IMG/VR virus record: IMGVR_UViG_2778261389_000002 | Coordinates: 1-5,373 of that record | Direction: 5' to 3' (one strand) | Source of the DNA: a virus | Taxonomy: Duplodnaviria > Heunggongvirae > Uroviricota > Caudoviricetes | Length of the DNA stretch: 5,373 nucleotides | Shown here: piece after piece, positions 1 through 5,373 of the stretch | How the letters are laid out: every line of letters begins with the position of its first letter | How positions within the stretch are numbered: the stretch's first letter is position 1 | Made by a program: the position numbers and the translations under genes | The notes under the pieces: generated by a model | Databases searched by the model: none | What the model was told of the DNA's origin: nothing | Seen by the model: only the letters and a program-made list of their open reading frames with translations

Positions 1-60
1 GTGGCGGCCTCAGTCCGGAACAATTTGAAAACAAGAACCTCGCTTAGGCCTGTGTCCATA

Positions 61-630
61 TTACGTGGGTAGGATCACATATGGTGAATATTCGTTGTCT
101 TGTTTAGTAACGGTGTCTGTCATTGTCCTGATGTAGTCTGCGCTTACCACGTTGTTGTATTCTGTTGCGAAGCAGCATAACAACGTCAGAACATGCTCTG
201 TCGTTATTTCGATCCAGTTGATGTTGAAAAACTCATCGCCTTTTTTATCGTGTTCGGAATCGAAGATGCTTTGGTGGAGGATGTATTTGCCGGATTCCTT
301 GCGCGGTAACTTGATCGCTTTCTGGCGTTCCAACTCCTTGTAAATCTGCATTGCTTCAATTAGTACCGGCCTGCCGTTCATGAAGGGATCGCGCAACCTT
401 ACACGCTGGCCAACTCGACCGGTAATAAAGCTGTTTTCCTCTTCCACCAGCACGATAAAACCCTTTTCCTCTTTTTCTCGCAATTCGCGCAGCAGCTGGA
501 GTTCCATATCGCGGCGGCGTTCAGGGTAGCTGGTCCGCTCAGCCATTATCAGCTCGTTGTTGATCCATGCAGCAGTCATTGACGCCGGTTTACCGACGCT
601 CATCGAAACAACGCATATTTTCTTATCCAT
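61..630 (-). CDS. hypothetical protein, 189 aa, gene downstream of ref
   Basis: Part of track ORF 61..777(-). I place the start at ATG 628-630 (MDKKICVV...), preceded by SD AGGGGG (rc of 635-640) at 4-nt spacing; stop TAA at 61-63. The longer upstream extension in the track would translate through a terminator hairpin and the RBS, so it is rejected. No family recognised from the sequence; by P1 gene order it occupies the slot after ref. Confidence 0.55.
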   Translation of the reverse strand: MDKKICVVSMSVGKPASMTAAWINNELIMAERTSYPERRRDMELQLLRELREKEEKGFIVLVEEENSFITGRVGQRVRLRDPFMNGRPVLIEAMQIYKELERQKAIKLPRKESGKYILHQSIFDSEHDKKGDEFFNINWIEITTEHVLTLLCCFATEYNNVVSADYIRTMTDTVTKQDNEYSPYVILPT

Positions 631-642
631 AGCGCCCCCTAT

Positions 643-669
643 AAAAAAGAAAAGCCACCAGCGGCGGCT
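643..669 (-). terminator. intrinsic-terminator-like hairpin in front of the 189-aa ORF
   Basis: Minus strand reads AGCCGCC-GCT-GGTGGCT (7-bp stem with one G-U pair) followed by TTTTCTTTTTT. The T-tract ends about 12 nt upstream of the ATG at 630. Confidence 0.55.
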
Positions 670-819
670 TAGCAATACAACTGAAGGTAGCGCCCGGTAC
701 TCAGACTGTGCCGTCCATGGAATATTTGAAAAGGGATCCATCCGTACCGGGCATGTGATGATTCTGACTGAAGTCACTTGTCAGTTGTCAATTATTTCAG
801 ATTAAAAATAATATATTTA

Positions 820-1376
820 TTAGTGCATGATGTTTGCCATCTCATAGGCGTCAGCCAGCAATTCCATCTCTGACTTGTTCAGCAAGGTGAATTCTTTCTT
901 GCCTCCAACCACACCATCGGCATGAACGGGGACCAGCCAGGGGTATTTTTCTCTTACTTCAGCCGGTGCTGCATGCTAGTGGTGCCATCTACAAAGGGGC
1001 AATTGCTTTTTGTGACAACCCGGCGCGGTACGACCGGAGATATGGTGCAGAGACACCTCTTCAGATATTACTCCATGCATGTAGCAGGCAATGCAGGGGA
1101 GAGTGCCAAGAGCATTGGCGATGGTCCGTTCCTCCGCCGTCGGTGTTCGCCCCTTCAAGCCACGAGATTTTATTTTTACCGCACTTTTCCGCGTTTTGCT
1201 GGCTGGTGGGCGCTCTTTCTGTTTAGCGATACGGCGGTCGATAGAATCCCGCATTTTCTGATATTGCGATTCTCGCCAGGCGGGGTCAGCCAACTTTTCC
1301 CGTTGCCGATCGCTCGTTCTCTGGCTGCCTTCTGCCACTCGCGGCGCTGTTCAAGTTTTTGTTCGATTGTTTTCAT
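820..1376 (-). pseudogene. ref: ref (P1 recombination enhancement function, HNH endonuclease), disrupted by a frameshift and an in-frame TAG
   Basis: Best start ATG 1374-1376 (MKTIEQKLEQRREW...) lies in the frame of track ORF 1176..1481, which stops at 1176. The HNH core (CIAC...LHHI...CRWHH) is in a different frame (track ORF 976..1338) that overlaps it by 163 nt. That frame hits TAG at 976-978 and then stays open for 51 more codons (HAAPAEVREKYPWLVPVHADGVV...ANIMH) to TAA 820-822. ATG to TAA spans about 185 codons, matching the ~186-aa size I recall for P1 Ref. Position about 2 kb from loxP and the C1-operator promoter upstream fit ref. Confidence 0.6.
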
Positions 1377-1381
1377 ATGGC

Positions 1382-1407
1382 AAAAAAAAGGCGGCCTAAT
1401 GGCCGCC
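1382..1407 (-). terminator. intrinsic-terminator-like hairpin between the ref promoter and the ref ATG
   Basis: Minus strand reads GGCGGCC-ATTA-GGCCGCC (perfect 7-bp GC stem) followed by T8. The T-tract ends 5 nt before the ref ATG. It may terminate cre/cra read-through or act as a leader attenuator. Confidence 0.6.
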
Positions 1408-1465
1408 AATGATGTCAAGGAGTGAAGTAATGGCAACGTCTTCGTAGTTGACAAAAACTGCGGCT

Positions 1466-1491
1466 CAATTATAGCAATCAATTAGAGCAAT
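1466..1491 (-). promoter_or_regulatory. ref promoter (-10 TATAAT) overlapped by a C1 operator (Op2-like)
   Basis: Minus strand has a perfect TATAAT (rc of 1468-1473). Immediately upstream, ATTGCTCTAATTGATTG (rc of 1475-1491) matches the C1 operator consensus at 14/17 with the 11-bp core perfect. Ref is known to be C1-repressed in P1. Confidence 0.65.
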
Positions 1492-1517
1492 TAAAGTTAT
1501 TTATCGCGAATCACATT

Positions 1518-1546
1518 TTTTCATTTCAGTACCTGTGTGCTATACT
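1518..1546 (+). promoter_or_regulatory. candidate + strand promoter with extended -10
   Basis: TGcTATACT at 1538-1546 (TG plus TATACT) with a weak -35 TTTTCA at 1518-1523 and 17-nt spacer. It points at the terminator at 1593-1622. Confidence 0.35.
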
Positions 1547-1552
1547 CCTTCT

Positions 1553-1622
1553 TGATTGATTGGATGCGGAATACAAACCCGCTCTTTTGTGCAGCCTGGC
1601 TCCTTGCCAGGCTTTTTTTATT
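1553..1622 (+). ncRNA. candidate small RNA of about 70 nt (promoter to intrinsic terminator)
   Basis: Predicted start about 1553 after the extended -10. A strong + strand terminator follows: AGCCTGGC-TCCTT-GCCAGGCT (8-bp stem, 1593-1613) then TTTTTTTATTT. No plausible ORF or RBS inside. It lies between the cra-position ORF and the ref promoter. Confidence 0.3.
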
Positions 1623-1929
1623 TCAGCATGGAAGCTGTTAACGCTTTGGACCTTGCTGAACTGATTGAAAGGGCTTTGTCAACGTGCCCCAAAAATTCGC
1701 CAAACTCGGCCATCACTTTGGCAAAACCGCGCCGTGCTTCTTTCTCGGTGGCATTCATCACGAAATGTTCAGCACTACGCATACTTTTGACAGGGAACGC
1801 AACGGATATTGAGTCAATATCAGGCATTCTATCGCTCAGCTTTACAGTGACAATGACGGCTGGCGACTGAATATTAGTGCTTACAGACAGCACTACATAT
1901 TTTCCGTCGATGTTGAAATCCTTTCTCAC
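1618..1929 (-). CDS. hypothetical protein, 103 aa, in the position of P1 cra
   Basis: Track ORF 1618..1929(-) with GTG start and a weak GGTGA SD; the stop lies inside the T-tract of the 1593-1622 hairpin. It sits between cre and ref where P1 carries cra, but I cannot confirm the sequence identity from memory. The antisense + ORF 1556..1870 is less plausible because it would read through the terminator. Confidence 0.4.
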   Translation of the reverse strand: MRKDFNIDGKYVVLSVSTNIQSPAVIVTVKLSDRMPDIDSISVAFPVKSMRSAEHFVMNATEKEARRGFAKVMAEFGEFLGHVDKALSISSARSKALTASMLK

Positions 1930-1945
1930 ATGTCACCATAAATAT

Positions 1946-1962
1946 CAAAGAATTAGAGCAAT
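1946..1962 (-). promoter_or_regulatory. C1 operator-like site between cre and the cra-position ORF
   Basis: rc of 1946-1962 is ATTGCTCTAATTCTTTG: the 11-bp core ATTGCTCTAAT is perfect, 13/17 overall against the consensus. Confidence 0.45.
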
Positions 1963-1979
1963 AATTTACGCGTTAATGG

Positions 1980-3011
1980 CTAATCGCCATCTTCCAGCAG
2001 GCGCACCATTGCCCCTGTTTCACTATCCAGGTTACGGATATAGTTCATGACAATATTTACGTTGGTCCAGCCACCAGCTTGCATGATCTCCGGTAGTGAA
2101 ACTCCGGCGCGGGCCATATCTCGTGCGGCTCCGACACGGGCACTGTGTCCAGACCAGGCCAGGTACCTCTGGCCAGAGTCATCCTTAGCCCCGTAAATCA
2201 ATCGGTGAGTTGCTTCAAAAATCCCTTCCAGGGCGCGAGTTGATAGCTGGCTGGTGGCAGATGGCGCGGCAACACCATTTTTTCTGACACGGCAAAACAA
2301 GTAGTTATTCGGATCATCAGCCACACCAGAGACAGAAATCCATCGCTCAACCAGTTTAGTTACCCCCAGACTAAGTGCCTTCTCTACACCAGCGGTGCTA
2401 ACCAGCGTTTTCGTTCTGCCAATATGGATTAACATTCTCCCACCGTCAGTACGTGAGATATCTTTAACTCTGATCCTAGAAATTTCGGCTATACGTAACA
2501 GGGTGTTATAAGCAATCCCCAGAAATGCCAGATTACGTATATCCTGGCAGCGATCGCTATTTTCCATGAGTGAACGAACCTGGTCGAAATCAGTGCGTTC
2601 GAACGCCAGCGCCTGTTTTGCACGCTCACCGGCATCAACGTTTTCTTTTCGGATCCGTCGGATGACCAGTGAAACAGCATTGCTGTCACTTGGTCGTGGC
2701 AGCCCGGACCGACGATGAAGCATATTTAGCTGGCCCAAATGTTGCTGGATAGTTTTCACTGCCAGACCGCGCGCCTGAAGATATAGAAGATAATCGCGAA
2801 CATCTTCAGGTTCTGCGGGAAACCATTTCCGGTTATTCAACTTGCACCATGCCGCCCATGACCGGCAAACGGACAGAAGCATTTTCCAGGTATGCTCAGA
2901 AAACGCCTGGCGATCCCTGAACATATCCATCAGGTTCTTGCGAACCTCATCACTCGTTGCATCGACCGGCAATGCAGGCAAATTTTGGTGTACGGTCAGT
3001 AAATTGGACAT
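1980..3011 (-). CDS. cre: Cre site-specific tyrosine recombinase
   Basis: 343-aa ORF (MSNLLTVHQNLPALPVDATSDEVRKNLMDMFRDRQAFSEH...MVRLLEDGD) recognised as P1 Cre over its full length. Catalytic-region motifs are present (GHSARVGAARD, GGW, NYI). loxP lies 419 bp upstream. Confidence 0.97.
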   Translation of the reverse strand: MSNLLTVHQNLPALPVDATSDEVRKNLMDMFRDRQAFSEHTWKMLLSVCRSWAAWCKLNNRKWFPAEPEDVRDYLLYLQARGLAVKTIQQHLGQLNMLHRRSGLPRPSDSNAVSLVIRRIRKENVDAGERAKQALAFERTDFDQVRSLMENSDRCQDIRNLAFLGIAYNTLLRIAEISRIRVKDISRTDGGRMLIHIGRTKTLVSTAGVEKALSLGVTKLVERWISVSGVADDPNNYLFCRVRKNGVAAPSATSQLSTRALEGIFEATHRLIYGAKDDSGQRYLAWSGHSARVGAARDMARAGVSLPEIMQAGGWTNVNIVMNYIRNLDSETGAMVRLLEDGD

Positions 3012-3018
3012 TTGACAC

Positions 3019-3240
3019 TCAGATAATGGTTTTAAGTAAAGTGTACAGGATCGGCTCTGCCTTTACCTGTTTATGGTTCTCGTCATAGAAACGCCAACGA
3101 CCGCGACTGCGTTCTATCTTTTCTTCACCGCGCGATAATGACAGTTGACAACTATCACGATCAAACCCTTTCGCCCGCCAGTAACCACGATTTTTCTCAA
3201 GCTCAAGATGAGTGGACACTTTAGCAGCTGAATATCCCAT
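3019..3240 (-). CDS. small ORF (73 aa) directly upstream of cre
   Basis: ATG at 3238-3240 is preceded by SD GAGGTGA at about 4-nt spacing; the stop at 3019-3021 is 7 nt before the cre ATG. The product is basic with no recognisable domain. It could be a real leader ORF or a chance ORF in the cre regulatory region. Confidence 0.35.
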   Translation of the reverse strand: MGYSAAKVSTHLELEKNRGYWRAKGFDRDSCQLSLSRGEEKIERSRGRWRFYDENHKQVKAEPILYTLLKTII

Positions 3241-3337
3241 TTTTCACCTCTGATTGATTGGTGGTGCTAAGTGCGCTACGCGAAATCTGGAGCACTAACA
3301 CTGCCAACATTTCGCAGATTTTACGTAGCGCAACCTT

Positions 3338-3410
3338 GATCAAATGATCAAGTGATCACTATTTGACCTGATAAGGTATTGAGCTGTATGGATTTACAGG
3401 TAAATTGATC
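3338..3410. promoter_or_regulatory. Dam (GATC) site cluster in the cre regulatory region
   Basis: GATC at 3338, 3346, 3354 and 3407; the first three sit in reiterated TGATCA hexamers within 20 bp. P1 cre promoters are reported to be methylation-sensitive. Confidence 0.5.
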
Positions 3411-3429
3411 ATGTTCAATAACCCTTAAG

Positions 3430-3463
3430 ATAACTTCGTATAATGTATGCTATACGAAGTTAT
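3430..3463 (+). other. loxP: loxP site (Cre recombination target)
   Basis: Exact 34-bp ATAACTTCGTATA-ATGTATGC-TATACGAAGTTAT: two 13-bp inverted arms around an 8-bp asymmetric spacer. Confidence 0.97.
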
Positions 3464-3506
3464 TAGGTCTGAAGAGGAGTTTACGTCCAGCTGCGCATAA
3501 AAATCA

Positions 3507-3523
3507 AGAATTATTAGAGCAAT
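3507..3523 (-). promoter_or_regulatory. C1 operator (Op99 family), minus orientation
   Basis: rc of 3507-3523 is ATTGCTCTAATAATTCT, 15/17 against the consensus ATTGCTCTAATAAATTT. Confidence 0.7.
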
Positions 3524-3583
3524 AAATTTTGAGAGAAAAATCCCACTCCACCAGCCAAAAACTGGATTGTTTTTCATAGTTGT

Positions 3584-3610
3584 TTGACAATTGCTCTAAT
3601 AAATTATAGT
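3584..3610 (+). promoter_or_regulatory. immC promoter (P99-like) with overlapping C1 operator
   Basis: -35 TTGACA at 3584-3589 is followed by ATTGCTCTAATAAATTA (3590-3606, 16/17 to consensus) and -10 TATAGT at 3605-3610. It is oriented toward coi and c1, consistent with autoregulation. Confidence 0.75.
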
Positions 3611-3844
3611 TTTGCCGCCGTTACGTAATACGACTTTGGATTCACTATTTAATGTGTCTTCAGCGTTGTAGAGCGGCTCAGAAGGAAATGAGCAAACAGG
3701 GAAACCTTATACAACGGCATTACAGCTATGCATTGCTCATCTTACACACAGCGCAATGTTGTTAGATTACCCCAGCATGGATCATGGGTGAAACAGTAGG
3801 TCAGAGCTTCAGGCTCTGTGTTGTCAATACAGTGAGGCATAATT

Positions 3845-4054
3845 ATGGCTTTCATTCAACCAACCATCGGCGACGTTAGACATTGCTCTAACGCTTTATC
3901 TGTAGACCCTGCCGAAACCGACGCAGCCCGCGCCATTGCTGAACACTACTCAAAGATATCCAATCAGGAGTACCGCATCACCCAAGACGACCTGGATGAC
4001 CTCACTGACACAATCGAATATCTCATGGCAACTAACCAGTTAGACTCACAATAA
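3845..4054 (+). CDS. coi: Coi, C1 inactivator
   Basis: 69-aa ORF (MAFIQPTIGDVRHCSNALSV...) immediately upstream of c1 in the same orientation, with a GAGG SD 7 nt upstream. Size and position match P1 coi. A weak operator-like ATTGCTCTAA core sits inside the gene at 3882-3891. Confidence 0.85.
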   Translation: MAFIQPTIGDVRHCSNALSVDPAETDAARAIAEHYSKISNQEYRITQDDLDDLTDTIEYLMATNQLDSQ

Positions 4055-4097
4055 ATGCACTAATAAATCTATTATTTTCGTTTGATCCCTCTATAAT
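4054..4097 (+). promoter_or_regulatory. operator-like site at the coi stop plus candidate -10 for c1
   Basis: AATGCACTAATAAATCT (4054-4070) matches the C1 operator consensus at 14/17 with two core mismatches. TATAAT at 4092-4097 has no good -35. Confidence 0.35.
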
Positions 4098-4164
4098 ATA
4101 GGTCAGTAATGACCGGTTTTCTCAGCCGGGCGTTATTGACCATGTCAATTCTGGAGGAGGATCA

Positions 4165-5016
4165 ATGATAAATTATGTCTACGGCGAACAACTGTACCAG
4201 GAGTTCGTCAGCTTCAGGGATCTCTTTCTAAAAAAAGCTGTTGCACGCGCCCAACACGTTGATACAGCCAGCGACGGTCGTCCTGTACGCCCGGTTGTCG
4301 TTCTACCGTTCAAAGAAACTGACAGCATTCAGGCTGAAATTGATAAATGGACTTTAATGGCGCGGGAACTGGAACAGTACCCAGACCTCAATATCCCAAA
4401 GACTATTTTATATCCAGTGCCTAACATCCTTCGCGGTGTGCGTAAGGTTACAACTTATCAGACAGAAGCTGTGAACAGCGTCAACATGACCGCTGGCCGC
4501 ATTATTCATCTGATTGATAAGGACATTCGCATCCAAAAAAGCGCGGAGATCAATGAGCACAGTGCGAAATACATAGAGAACCTGGAAGCAACAAAAGAGC
4601 TAATGAAGCAGTACCCGGAGGATGAAAAATTCCGTATGCGCGTACACGGCTTTAGCGAAACAATGCTGCGCGTCCACTACATTTCCAGTAGCCCTAACTA
4701 CAATGATGGTAAATCAGTTAGTTACCATGTGCCACTGTGTGGCGTGTTTATCTGCGATGAAACTCTCCGTGATGGAATTATCATCAACGGTGAATTCGAA
4801 AAAGCAAAATTTAGCCTTTATGACTCCATAGAACCGATCATCTGCGACCGCTGGCCGCAAGCAAAAATATATCGCCTGGCAGATATTGAAAATGTAAAAA
4901 AACAAATTGCCATCACTCGCGAAGAGAAAAAGGTTAAGTCAGCCGCATCAGTTACGCGCAGCCGTAAAACCAAGAAGGGGCAGCCAGTAAACGACAACCC
5001 CGAAAGCGCGCAATAA
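4165..5016 (+). CDS. c1: C1 repressor of lytic functions
   Basis: 283-aa ORF (MINYVYGEQLYQEFVSFRDLFLKK...NDNPESAQ) recognised as P1 C1. Strong SD GGAGGAGG at 4153-4160 sits 4 nt before the ATG. It lies downstream of coi and the operator-controlled promoter. Confidence 0.95.
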   Translation: MINYVYGEQLYQEFVSFRDLFLKKAVARAQHVDTASDGRPVRPVVVLPFKETDSIQAEIDKWTLMARELEQYPDLNIPKTILYPVPNILRGVRKVTTYQTEAVNSVNMTAGRIIHLIDKDIRIQKSAEINEHSAKYIENLEATKELMKQYPEDEKFRMRVHGFSETMLRVHYISSSPNYNDGKSVSYHVPLCGVFICDETLRDGIIINGEFEKAKFSLYDSIEPIICDRWPQAKIYRLADIENVKKQIAITREEKKVKSAASVTRSRKTKKGQPVNDNPESAQ

Positions 5017-5020
5017 ATTA

Positions 5021-5053
5021 TGCCCGGCATCAACCGGGCATTCTTCCATTATT
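5021..5053. terminator. bidirectional intrinsic terminator between convergent c1 and the KilAC-like ORF
   Basis: TGCCCGG-CATCAA-CCGGGCA (7-bp stem) is followed by TTCTTCCATTATT on the + strand and by TAATTTATT on the - strand. Confidence 0.55.
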
Positions 5054-5312
5054 CAGCCGCCACCGGTTTTAACAAGCCAGCATCGAGCAGTTTACGCGTC
5101 AACCACTGCTGGCCTTTACCCGTTAATTGAGGCGTCAACCGTATCTGGTAGCCATCTTCATCATCCAGCACCACTTCTTTCACCGTGAAATACCCCGCGT
5201 TGATGTACTGCTGGAACGGTACATTTTTACGGCCTCCGGACGCTATCAGAATGCCGTTCTCCCGTAACCAGGCAAACAGCGCATTTTGTTTAAGTCGGGG
5301 TTTGAGGGCCAA
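5049..5312 (-). CDS. KilAC/ANT-like domain ORF (87 aa), probably a 5'-truncated remnant
   Basis: Track ORF 5049..5312(-). The motif pattern (NALFAWLRENGIL...NVPFQQYINAGYF...TPQLTGKGQQWLTRKLL) resembles the C-terminal KilAC/ANT domain of phage antirepressors, judged by eye. It has no ATG (only TTG at 5310-5312) and no SD, and all three minus frames are closed by stops in 5313-5373. Confidence 0.4.
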   Translation of the reverse strand: MALKPRLKQNALFAWLRENGILIASGGRKNVPFQQYINAGYFTVKEVVLDDEDGYQIRLTPQLTGKGQQWLTRKLLDAGLLKPVAAE

Positions 5313-5373
5313 TGGAACGAAAACGTACGCTAAGAAGTTAATTCATTGTTTAAATTGAAATTTAGTTCTCTCA

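What the first reader, a model, noticed from the sequence alone, without database searches (positions are those of the whole stretch)
820..1481. ref is split across frames and carries an in-frame amber codon
The only good start (ATG 1374-1376, MKTIEQ...) is in a frame that stops at 1176. The HNH core is in another frame (976..1338) overlapping it by 163 nt. That frame then meets TAG at 976-978, directly after LPLCRWHH, and stays open for 51 more codons to TAA 820-822. The whole ATG-to-TAA span is about 185 codons, matching the ~186-aa P1 Ref as I recall it, and the post-TAG tail contains VPVHADG, whose His falls near the catalytic His-153 I remember for Ref. So an intact ref would be one ORF; this copy needs a frame change between about 1176 and 1350 and has a nonsense codon before the catalytic His. 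It is either an inactivated allele, an amber allele expressed only in suppressor hosts, or sequencing or assembly error.
Basis: partly seen in the sequence, partly recalled or inferred. Interest (0 to 1): 0.6.

Follow-up and report, generated by a model that had tools for sequence, protein, structure and literature searches.

The report
Dead copy of phage P1 ref
This is a broken copy (pseudogene) of the phage P1 ref nuclease gene, disabled by a 4-base deletion and a premature stop codon; it sits on a decayed P1-derived plasmid and public annotation already flags it as a pseudogene, so it is ordinary.

Summary
On the minus strand, ATG 1376-1374 to TAA 822-820 is the P1 ref gene (Pfam PF16786; solved structure 3PLW).

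It carries two lesions relative to intact relatives:
- A 4-nt deletion, TCGC lost from GCGA[TCGC]TCGG. The junction lies within 1310-1306, at codons 23/24.
- A C-to-T change at 978, which turns CAG (Gln135) into TAG.

Repairing both in silico gives a 186-aa protein identical to phage phiW39 Ref. His153, the published active-site residue, is at 924-922, downstream of both lesions.

This is not a sequencing error. The same 17 complete E. coli records carry both lesions, against about 533 with an intact junction. NCBI's PGAP already annotates the allele as "Ref family protein, pseudogene; frameshifted; internal stop".

It is not a suppressor-dependent amber allele either:
- The frameshift lies upstream of the amber codon.
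- cre, in the same window, ends in TAG.
- The carrier plasmid has no tRNA genes.
- No slippery site lies in the phase needed for frameshifting.

The two carrier plasmids examined are IS-riddled, cargo-laden P1-derived plasmids (PLSDB types other allele carriers as IncY). One lacks phage structural genes throughout; so does the first 50 kb of the other. Gene decay fits that setting.

Verdict: a real feature that is an ordinary, already annotated pseudogene. Interest is low.

The parts
820..1376 (-). ref pseudogene, from the native ATG to the native TAA (557 nt; intact alleles are 561 nt)
   Evidence: Aligns end to end with P1 and phiW39 ref. The identical sequence is annotated by PGAP as 'Ref family protein', pseudogene, 'frameshifted; internal stop'.
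1306..1310 (-). Junction of the 4-nt deletion. Intact alleles read GCGA-TCGC-TCGG; the window reads GCGA-TCGG. Placement is ambiguous across the TCG repeat. It falls in codons 23/24.
   Evidence: CDS nt 68-71 missing. 17 records carry the deletion and 533 carry the intact junction.
976..978 (-). Amber codon TAG replacing CAG (Gln135); the C->T change is at window 978
   Evidence: CDS nt 403. Exact matches occur only in the same 17 records.
1176..1376 (-). Residual ORF from the native start: 23 native Ref residues, then 43 out-of-frame residues, then TAA
   Evidence: This exact 66-aa product is deposited as 'hypothetical protein' and seen on 11 contigs. It has no Pfam match.
979..1338 (-). Reading frame holding Ref residues 25-134 (from about 1304 down to 979), preceded by out-of-frame codons from a GTG that has no Shine-Dalgarno sequence. 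It covers only the first half of the nuclease domain.
   Evidence: PF16786 model positions 1-55 of 103, E=1.7e-25. Upstream sequences of candidate start codons are listed.
823..975 (-). Post-amber tail: Ref residues 136-186, the second half of the nuclease domain. It includes the His153 codon CAT at 924-922.
   Evidence: PF16786 model positions 57-102, E=2.5e-16. H153A is the published active-site mutant (PMC4330346).
1475..1491 (-). C1 repressor operator Oref, identical to P1, overlapping the P2ref promoter
   Evidence: P1 annotation, alignment and operator consensus match.
1382..1436 (-). P1ref promoter-like site (1436-1409) and a GC hairpin plus T8 terminator-like element (1407-1382) directly before the ATG. 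Conserved with P1.
812..829 (-). Omat, the C1 operator for the downstream mat gene. It overlaps the last codons and the stop of ref and is identical to P1.
   Evidence: P1 annotation at L001 1001-1018. The aligned columns 701-718 are identical.

Best explanation
The locus is a non-functional remnant of ref, the phage P1 recombination-enhancement gene that encodes a RecA-dependent HNH nuclease. It is of the phiW39 allele type and sits on a degraded, plasmid-borne P1 derivative.

Shown:
- Lesion 1 is a 4-nt deletion, one TCG(C) unit lost from TCGC-TCGG, which shifts the frame after codon 23. Ribosomes starting at the native ATG therefore make a 66-aa peptide with only 23 native residues.
- Lesion 2 is a C->T transition that turns Gln135 into an amber stop. 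Even a product started downstream of the frameshift would end at residue 134. It would lack half of the nuclease domain, including active-site His153.

Inferred:
- The deletion arose by replication slippage between the short TCG repeats.
- No active Ref is made.
- The remaining DNA persists for two reasons. Inactivation is recent: after repair there are no amino-acid differences from phiW39 Ref. The segment also still carries C1-controlled regulatory sites (Oref upstream, Omat at the 3' end).
For: - Family and synteny: the sequence matches PF16786 and PDB 3PLW. It lies in the P1 immC order cre - c8 - ref - mat.
- Lesions: both are located exactly by alignment to P1, phiW39 and intact plasmid alleles.
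- Repair: the repaired translation is identical to phiW39 Ref over 186 aa.
- Population: 17 of about 554 ref-bearing records among complete E. coli genomes carry the deletion. The same 17 carry the TAG. No record has the deletion alone.
- Annotation: PGAP flags the allele as a pseudogene, 'frameshifted; internal stop', in three independent records.
- Carriers: the plasmids examined are full of IS elements and other pseudogenes. Phage structural genes are absent throughout CX21 unnamed2 and from the first 50 kb examined of p2-S1-ZIM-01-A.
- Stop usage: cre in this window terminates with TAG.
Against: - No expression or activity data exist for this allele.
- N-terminal truncations up to deltaN47 remain active in vitro (PMC4330346). 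The frameshift alone would therefore not necessarily kill a product started at internal Met43 (ATG 1254). Only the amber codon then guarantees loss of function.
- Promoters and the operator are intact, so the locus may still be transcribed.
Confidence: 0.95

Rival explanations
1. Sequencing or assembly error: the real gene is one intact 186-codon ORF.
For: A frameshift together with a stop codon is what error-prone assemblies can produce. Two phage records (vB_EcoM-673R5, vB_EcoM-813R1) show other single-base indels in ref that might be errors.
Against: - The 741-nt region is 100% identical in 11 plasmid records from different laboratories and countries.
- Both lesions occur in the same 17 complete-genome records, including an NCTC strain.
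- The deletion is 4 nt in non-homopolymer sequence, and the stop arises from a substitution.
- The 66-aa frameshift product has been deposited independently several times and is seen on 11 contigs.
Confidence: 0.01
2. Conditional amber allele: Ref is made only where UAG is read through, by a suppressor tRNA or by recoding.
For: - The TAG replaces CAG, so a supE-type (Gln-inserting) suppressor would restore the wild-type residue.
- An internal ATG at Met43 (window 1254) lies after the frameshift.
- deltaN47 Ref is active in vitro.
Against: - The frameshift upstream removes the native start from the frame.
- Neither the internal ATG 1254 nor GTG 1338 has a recognisable Shine-Dalgarno sequence.
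- cre in the same window ends in TAG.
- No tRNA gene is present in the window or on the 94.7-kb carrier plasmid.
- From general knowledge, natural E. coli isolates rarely carry amber suppressors.
Confidence: 0.02
3. Programmed ribosomal frameshift or a functional two-piece Ref: the split is tolerated or is regulatory.
For: The two frames overlap by 163 nt, and that overlap contains a GGGAAAA run at 1301.
Against: - The GGGAAAA run is in phase GGG AAA A, not the X XXY YYZ phase needed for -1 slippage, and -1 is the direction required here.
- There is no homopolymer of 6 nt or more in the coding part.
- 533 related alleles have the uninterrupted sequence, so the split is derived and rare.
- The amber codon would still remove half of the domain.
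Confidence: 0.01
4. The same pseudogene, but fixed by positive selection rather than neutral decay. Losing Ref benefits the host of a domesticated P1 plasmid because Ref is toxic and sensitises cells to fluoroquinolones.
For: - ref+ P1 lysogens survive ciprofloxacin worse than delta-ref lysogens and reach a lower stationary-phase density. [quoted passage not shown]
- Other truncated Ref proteins exist in public protein sets, and other disrupted copies occur in phage records.
- The lineage is geographically widespread.
Against: - The carriers hold many other pseudogenes and have lost most phage genes, so relaxed selection is sufficient.
- c1 and Oref are intact, so ref should be largely repressed.
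- Only about 3% of ref-bearing records carry this allele.
- No rate comparison with neighbouring genes was made.
Confidence: 0.2

Closest known systems
Phage phiW39 Ref (AAV84933.1, record AY751748.1)
   Same: After restoring TCGC and changing T978 to C, the encoded 186-aa protein is identical. The immC context is the same.
   Different: The window copy has the 4-nt deletion and the Gln135 amber codon, plus 9 silent nucleotide differences in the CDS.
Phage P1 Ref (YP_006474.1; PDB 3PLW), a RecA-dependent HNH nuclease
   Same: - Same gene, position and regulatory sites: Oref, the P1ref promoter, the hairpin and Omat.
- The repaired protein matches 3PLW at E=2e-118 over residues 1-186.
   Different: [quoted passage not shown]
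RefSeq pseudogene features J6O46_RS25600 (NZ_CP081764.1), EL113_RS23450 (NZ_LR134222.1) and V6S34_RS26440 (NZ_CP145673.1)
   Same: - All three are 557-nt features annotated 'Ref family protein; frameshifted; internal stop'.
- All three records carry both lesions.
- NZ_CP081764.1 is 100% identical to the window across the 741-nt ref region; NZ_CP145673.1 is 99.7% identical there.
   Different: The window's flanks differ. An IS3 end abuts the mat-like gene at 77/78, and this junction was not found in any searched record.

Membership tests
Ref family RecA-dependent nuclease (Pfam PF16786 RecA_dep_nuc) | Sequence match to the family model above the curated cut-off | tested here: met
   The repaired protein scores 167.8 bits against a cut-off of 26.9. 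The two separated pieces score 89.6 bits (model 1-55) and 60.1 bits (model 57-102).
Ref family RecA-dependent nuclease (Pfam PF16786 RecA_dep_nuc) | One uninterrupted ORF of about 186 codons joining the basic N-terminal DNA-binding region to the complete nuclease domain | tested here: not met
   A frameshift after codon 23 and an amber codon at codon 135 interrupt it. The locus is a family member by descent but not as a functional gene.
Ref family RecA-dependent nuclease (Pfam PF16786 RecA_dep_nuc) | Active-site His153 present in a translatable product | tested here: not met
   The His153 codon (924-922) is conserved but lies downstream of both the frameshift and the TAG. H153A is the published active-site mutant (PMC4330346).
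Ref family RecA-dependent nuclease (Pfam PF16786 RecA_dep_nuc) | P1 immC synteny (cre - c8 - ref - mat) with the C1 operator Oref upstream | tested here: met
Ref family RecA-dependent nuclease (Pfam PF16786 RecA_dep_nuc) | RecA-dependent DNA cleavage or recombination enhancement | not testable with these tools
   This needs biochemistry or genetics. It is predicted to be absent.
Programmed -1 ribosomal frameshift site | A slippery heptamer X XXY YYZ in the zero frame within the overlap of the two frames | tested here: not met
   The only XXXYYYZ run (GGGAAAA at 1301) is in the wrong phase.
Suppressor-dependent or recoded amber gene | A cognate suppressor tRNA, or avoidance of TAG as a stop codon in neighbouring genes | tested here: not met
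   No tRNA is found in the window or on the carrier plasmid. cre ends in TAG. Host chromosomes were not examined.

The most novel reading that the evidence does not exclude
Loss of ref may be adaptive rather than neutral. In P1-derived plasmids that have become resident cargo carriers, knocking out the toxic, fluoroquinolone-sensitising Ref nuclease could be selected for. If so, this widespread two-hit allele would mark one such event among several independent ones.
Probability: 0.2. Interest if true: 0.3.

Novelty: already known. Interest (0 to 1): 0.08.

Why it matters
It matters little. The result confirms that a tool-free reader correctly spotted a pseudogene and recalled the Ref facts accurately. 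It also documents that one specific two-lesion ref allele circulates in a lineage of decayed P1-derived plasmids. Its practical value is for annotation: the 66-aa product and the Met43-His134 product deposited as proteins are pseudogene fragments. It also gives a small lead on whether Ref loss benefits hosts exposed to quinolones.

Tried and rejected
- **Sequencing error.** Rejected by the independent identical assemblies.
- **Programmed frameshift or transcriptional slippage.** I scanned the 1376-1176 frame for XXXYYYZ heptamers and 1481-820 for homopolymers. I found only a wrong-phase GGGAAAA and a T8 run that lies upstream of the ATG.
- **Amber suppression.**
  - ARAGORN found no tRNA in the window or on the whole CX21 carrier plasmid.
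  - cre uses TAG as its stop.
- **Internal restarts.** GTG 1338, TTG 1293 and ATG 1254 have no convincing Shine-Dalgarno sequence upstream. Gene callers have nevertheless deposited the Met43-His134 ORF as WP_113073292.1.
- **Single-lesion intermediates, to order the two events.**
  - None carries the deletion alone.
  - None carries the TAG alone in the same 61-nt context.
  - A TAG-only allele in a different SNP context could have been missed.
- **Exact source record.** No record in the three collections contains the IS3/mat junction at 77/78.
- **Antisense ORF 922-1425 (+), 167 aa.** It runs opposite to ref. I treated it as spurious and did not test it further.

Full report
**Observation**

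- An ATG at 1376-1374 opens MKTIEQKLEQ... and runs 66 codons to TAA 1178-1176.
- A second frame is open from 1338 to 979, and TAG 978-976 follows ...LPLCRWHH.
- That same frame then continues for 51 codons (975-823) to TAA 822-820.
- The two frames overlap by 163 nt.

Translating the annotated ref of phage P1 (NC_005856.1) gives 186 aa with histidines at 133, 134, 136 and 153. The His of VPVHADG is His153, and its codon lies at window 924-922.

**What it is**

The 741-nt region matches ref of P1-like phages and plasmids. Identity is 94.3% to P1, 96.8% to phiW39, 97.2% to the closest intact plasmid alleles, and 100% to 11 plasmid records.

Alignment with P1, phiW39 and intact plasmid alleles shows two disrupting differences in the coding sequence.
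- CDS nt 68-71 (TCGC) are missing. Intact alleles read GCGA-TCGC-TCGG and the window reads GCGA-TCGG. Because of the TCG repeat, the junction can be placed anywhere within window 1310-1306.
- CDS nt 403 is T instead of C (window 978), which turns CAG (Gln135) into TAG.

Restoring both in silico gives a 186-aa protein identical to phiW39 Ref. The only other differences from the closest intact alleles are a few nucleotide substitutions.

The repaired protein matches Pfam PF16786 (RecA_dep_nuc) at 167.8 bits and PDB 3PLW at E=2e-118. In the window the domain is cut in two. Model positions 1-55 lie before the TAG and positions 57-102 after it.

The surroundings are the P1 immC region:
- cre, 343 aa, at 1980-3011 on the minus strand;
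- the c8 homologue at 1618-1929;
- a mat-like gene downstream of ref;
- c1, 283 aa, at 4165-5016;
- an exact loxP at 3430-3463.

**Real or artefact**

Two 60-nt probes were searched against 5,426 complete E. coli genomes, one centred on each lesion.
- The deletion junction is exact in 17 records. 533 records have the intact junction (93.8% identity, i.e. the 4-nt gap), and none falls in between.
- The TAG context is exact in 17 records, and they are the same 17.

These records come from unrelated sources:
- strain AW1.7 and the CX/CT strains from Canada;
- a sheep isolate;
- TOK-001, EC812A1 and S1-ZIM-01-A;
- further human isolates;
- NCTC11129, where the element sits in the chromosome.

NCBI's PGAP annotates the feature as 'Ref family protein', pseudogene, 'frameshifted; internal stop' in NZ_CP081764.1, NZ_LR134222.1 and NZ_CP145673.1. 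The 66-aa frameshift product has been deposited several times as a hypothetical protein and is seen on 11 contigs. The Met43-His134 fragment is deposited as WP_113073292.1, with further accessions labelled Salmonella enterica. The allele is therefore real and circulating, and it is already recorded as a pseudogene.

**How it works, or fails to**

Shown:
- Translation from the native ATG yields 23 native residues, then 43 out-of-frame residues.
- Any product in the Ref frame ends at residue 134.
- His153 lies beyond both lesions.

From the literature:
- Ref consists of a basic, unstructured 76-residue N-terminal region needed for DNA binding and a 110-residue nuclease core.
- H153A is the active-site mutant.
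- deltaN21 and deltaN47 truncations remain active (PMC4330346).

The frameshift alone might therefore be survivable through an internal start at Met43 (ATG 1254). The amber codon, however, removes half of the core. I infer that no active Ref is made.

The TCGC-TCGG context suggests that replication slippage caused the deletion (inference).

The regulatory DNA is unchanged relative to P1:
- operator Oref at 1491-1475;
- the P1ref promoter-like site;
- the hairpin plus T8 run before the ATG;
- Omat at 829-812, overlapping the ref stop codon.

**Alternatives tested**

Programmed frameshifting:
- The only XXXYYYZ run in the overlap (GGGAAAA at 1301) is in the wrong phase for the -1 slip that would be required.
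- The coding part has no long homopolymer.

Amber suppression:
- cre in the same window ends in TAG.
- ARAGORN finds no tRNA in the window or on the 94.7-kb carrier plasmid.
- A suppressor would not repair the frameshift in any case.

**Setting**

The plasmid that matches window 78-5373 at 100% is E. coli CX21 plasmid unnamed2. It retains these P1 genes:
- repA and parAB;
- phd/doc;
- lpa;
- cre;
- c1.

It has only fragments of terminase, darB and ant, and no phage structural genes. It is crowded with IS26, IS1, IS5 and Tn3 remnants, and with cargo genes (sil/cus, ttr and others).

A more divergent carrier, p2-S1-ZIM-01-A, was examined over its first 50 kb. It is similarly degraded and carries capsule and rfb cargo.

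A dead ref fits a P1 derivative that now lives as a plasmid rather than as a phage. Ref is also costly. ref+ lysogens survive ciprofloxacin worse than delta-ref lysogens, and expression of the full protein is toxic (PMC4713147). Loss could therefore be favoured. I give that reading about 0.2, because the general decay of these plasmids is a sufficient explanation and I made no rate comparison.

**Comparison and novelty**

By descent this is ref, of the phiW39 allele type. It fails the functional criteria for the family: an uninterrupted ORF, and an active-site His in a translatable product. The exact allele is already annotated as a pseudogene in RefSeq. The novelty class is 'already known' and interest is low.

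Noticed in passing
window 1-77, junction at 77/78: The first 77 nt are 100% identical to the end of IS3, as found for example on the F plasmid NC_002483.1. The IS abuts the 3' end of the mat-like gene. That gene's ORF therefore ends early, at 61-63, instead of running about 92 nt further as in the otherwise identical plasmids. No searched record contains this junction.
   Followed up: partly
window 5297-5373: Most P1-like relatives stop matching at 5296, inside a truncated antirepressor (KilAC) gene. The remaining bases continue into a Tn3-family transposase remnant, as in the CX-series and TOK-001 plasmids. This is another rearrangement breakpoint.
   Followed up: partly
L009 (NZ_LR134222.1, E. 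coli NCTC11129 chromosome) about 3878-3911; window 3430-3463: - In NCTC11129 the same P1-derived segment, with the same ref pseudogene, lies in the chromosome next to cytR.
- Homology to the window ends inside the loxP spacer (window 3450).
- One perfect loxP arm (TATACGAAGTTAT) is joined to a chromosomal sequence that matches the other arm at 8 of 13 positions.
- This looks like Cre-mediated integration at a chromosomal pseudo-lox site.
   Followed up: partly
window 1502/1503 and 1486-1492 (minus strand, upstream of ref): There is a 5-nt deletion relative to P1 just upstream of the annotated P2ref -35 hexamer, and the hexamer itself differs (CTTTAA against CTATCA in P1). A close relative, p812A1-65K, has only a 1-nt gap there. 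Whether P2ref still works is unknown.
   Followed up: no
L010 (ON470615.2, vB_EcoM-673R5), L012 (ON470617.2, vB_EcoM-813R1); proteins P0007, P0011, P0017: Other ref copies are disrupted at different places. The two phage records have single-base indels. Deposited Ref proteins end at residues 124 and 140, and another diverges after residue 131. These may be independent inactivations, sequencing errors or contig-edge partials. I did not resolve which.
   Followed up: partly
window 922-1425 (+): The longest ORF in the ref region is a 167-aa ORF antisense to ref. It is probably spurious, but gene callers could pick it up now that ref is broken.
   Followed up: no
window 1980-3011 (-): By my recollection of the standard P1 Cre sequence, this Cre differs at three residues: it reads VIRRIRK, AEISRIR and GVSLPEI where P1 has M, A and I. 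I did not verify this with a tool. The loxP site is exact.
   Followed up: no
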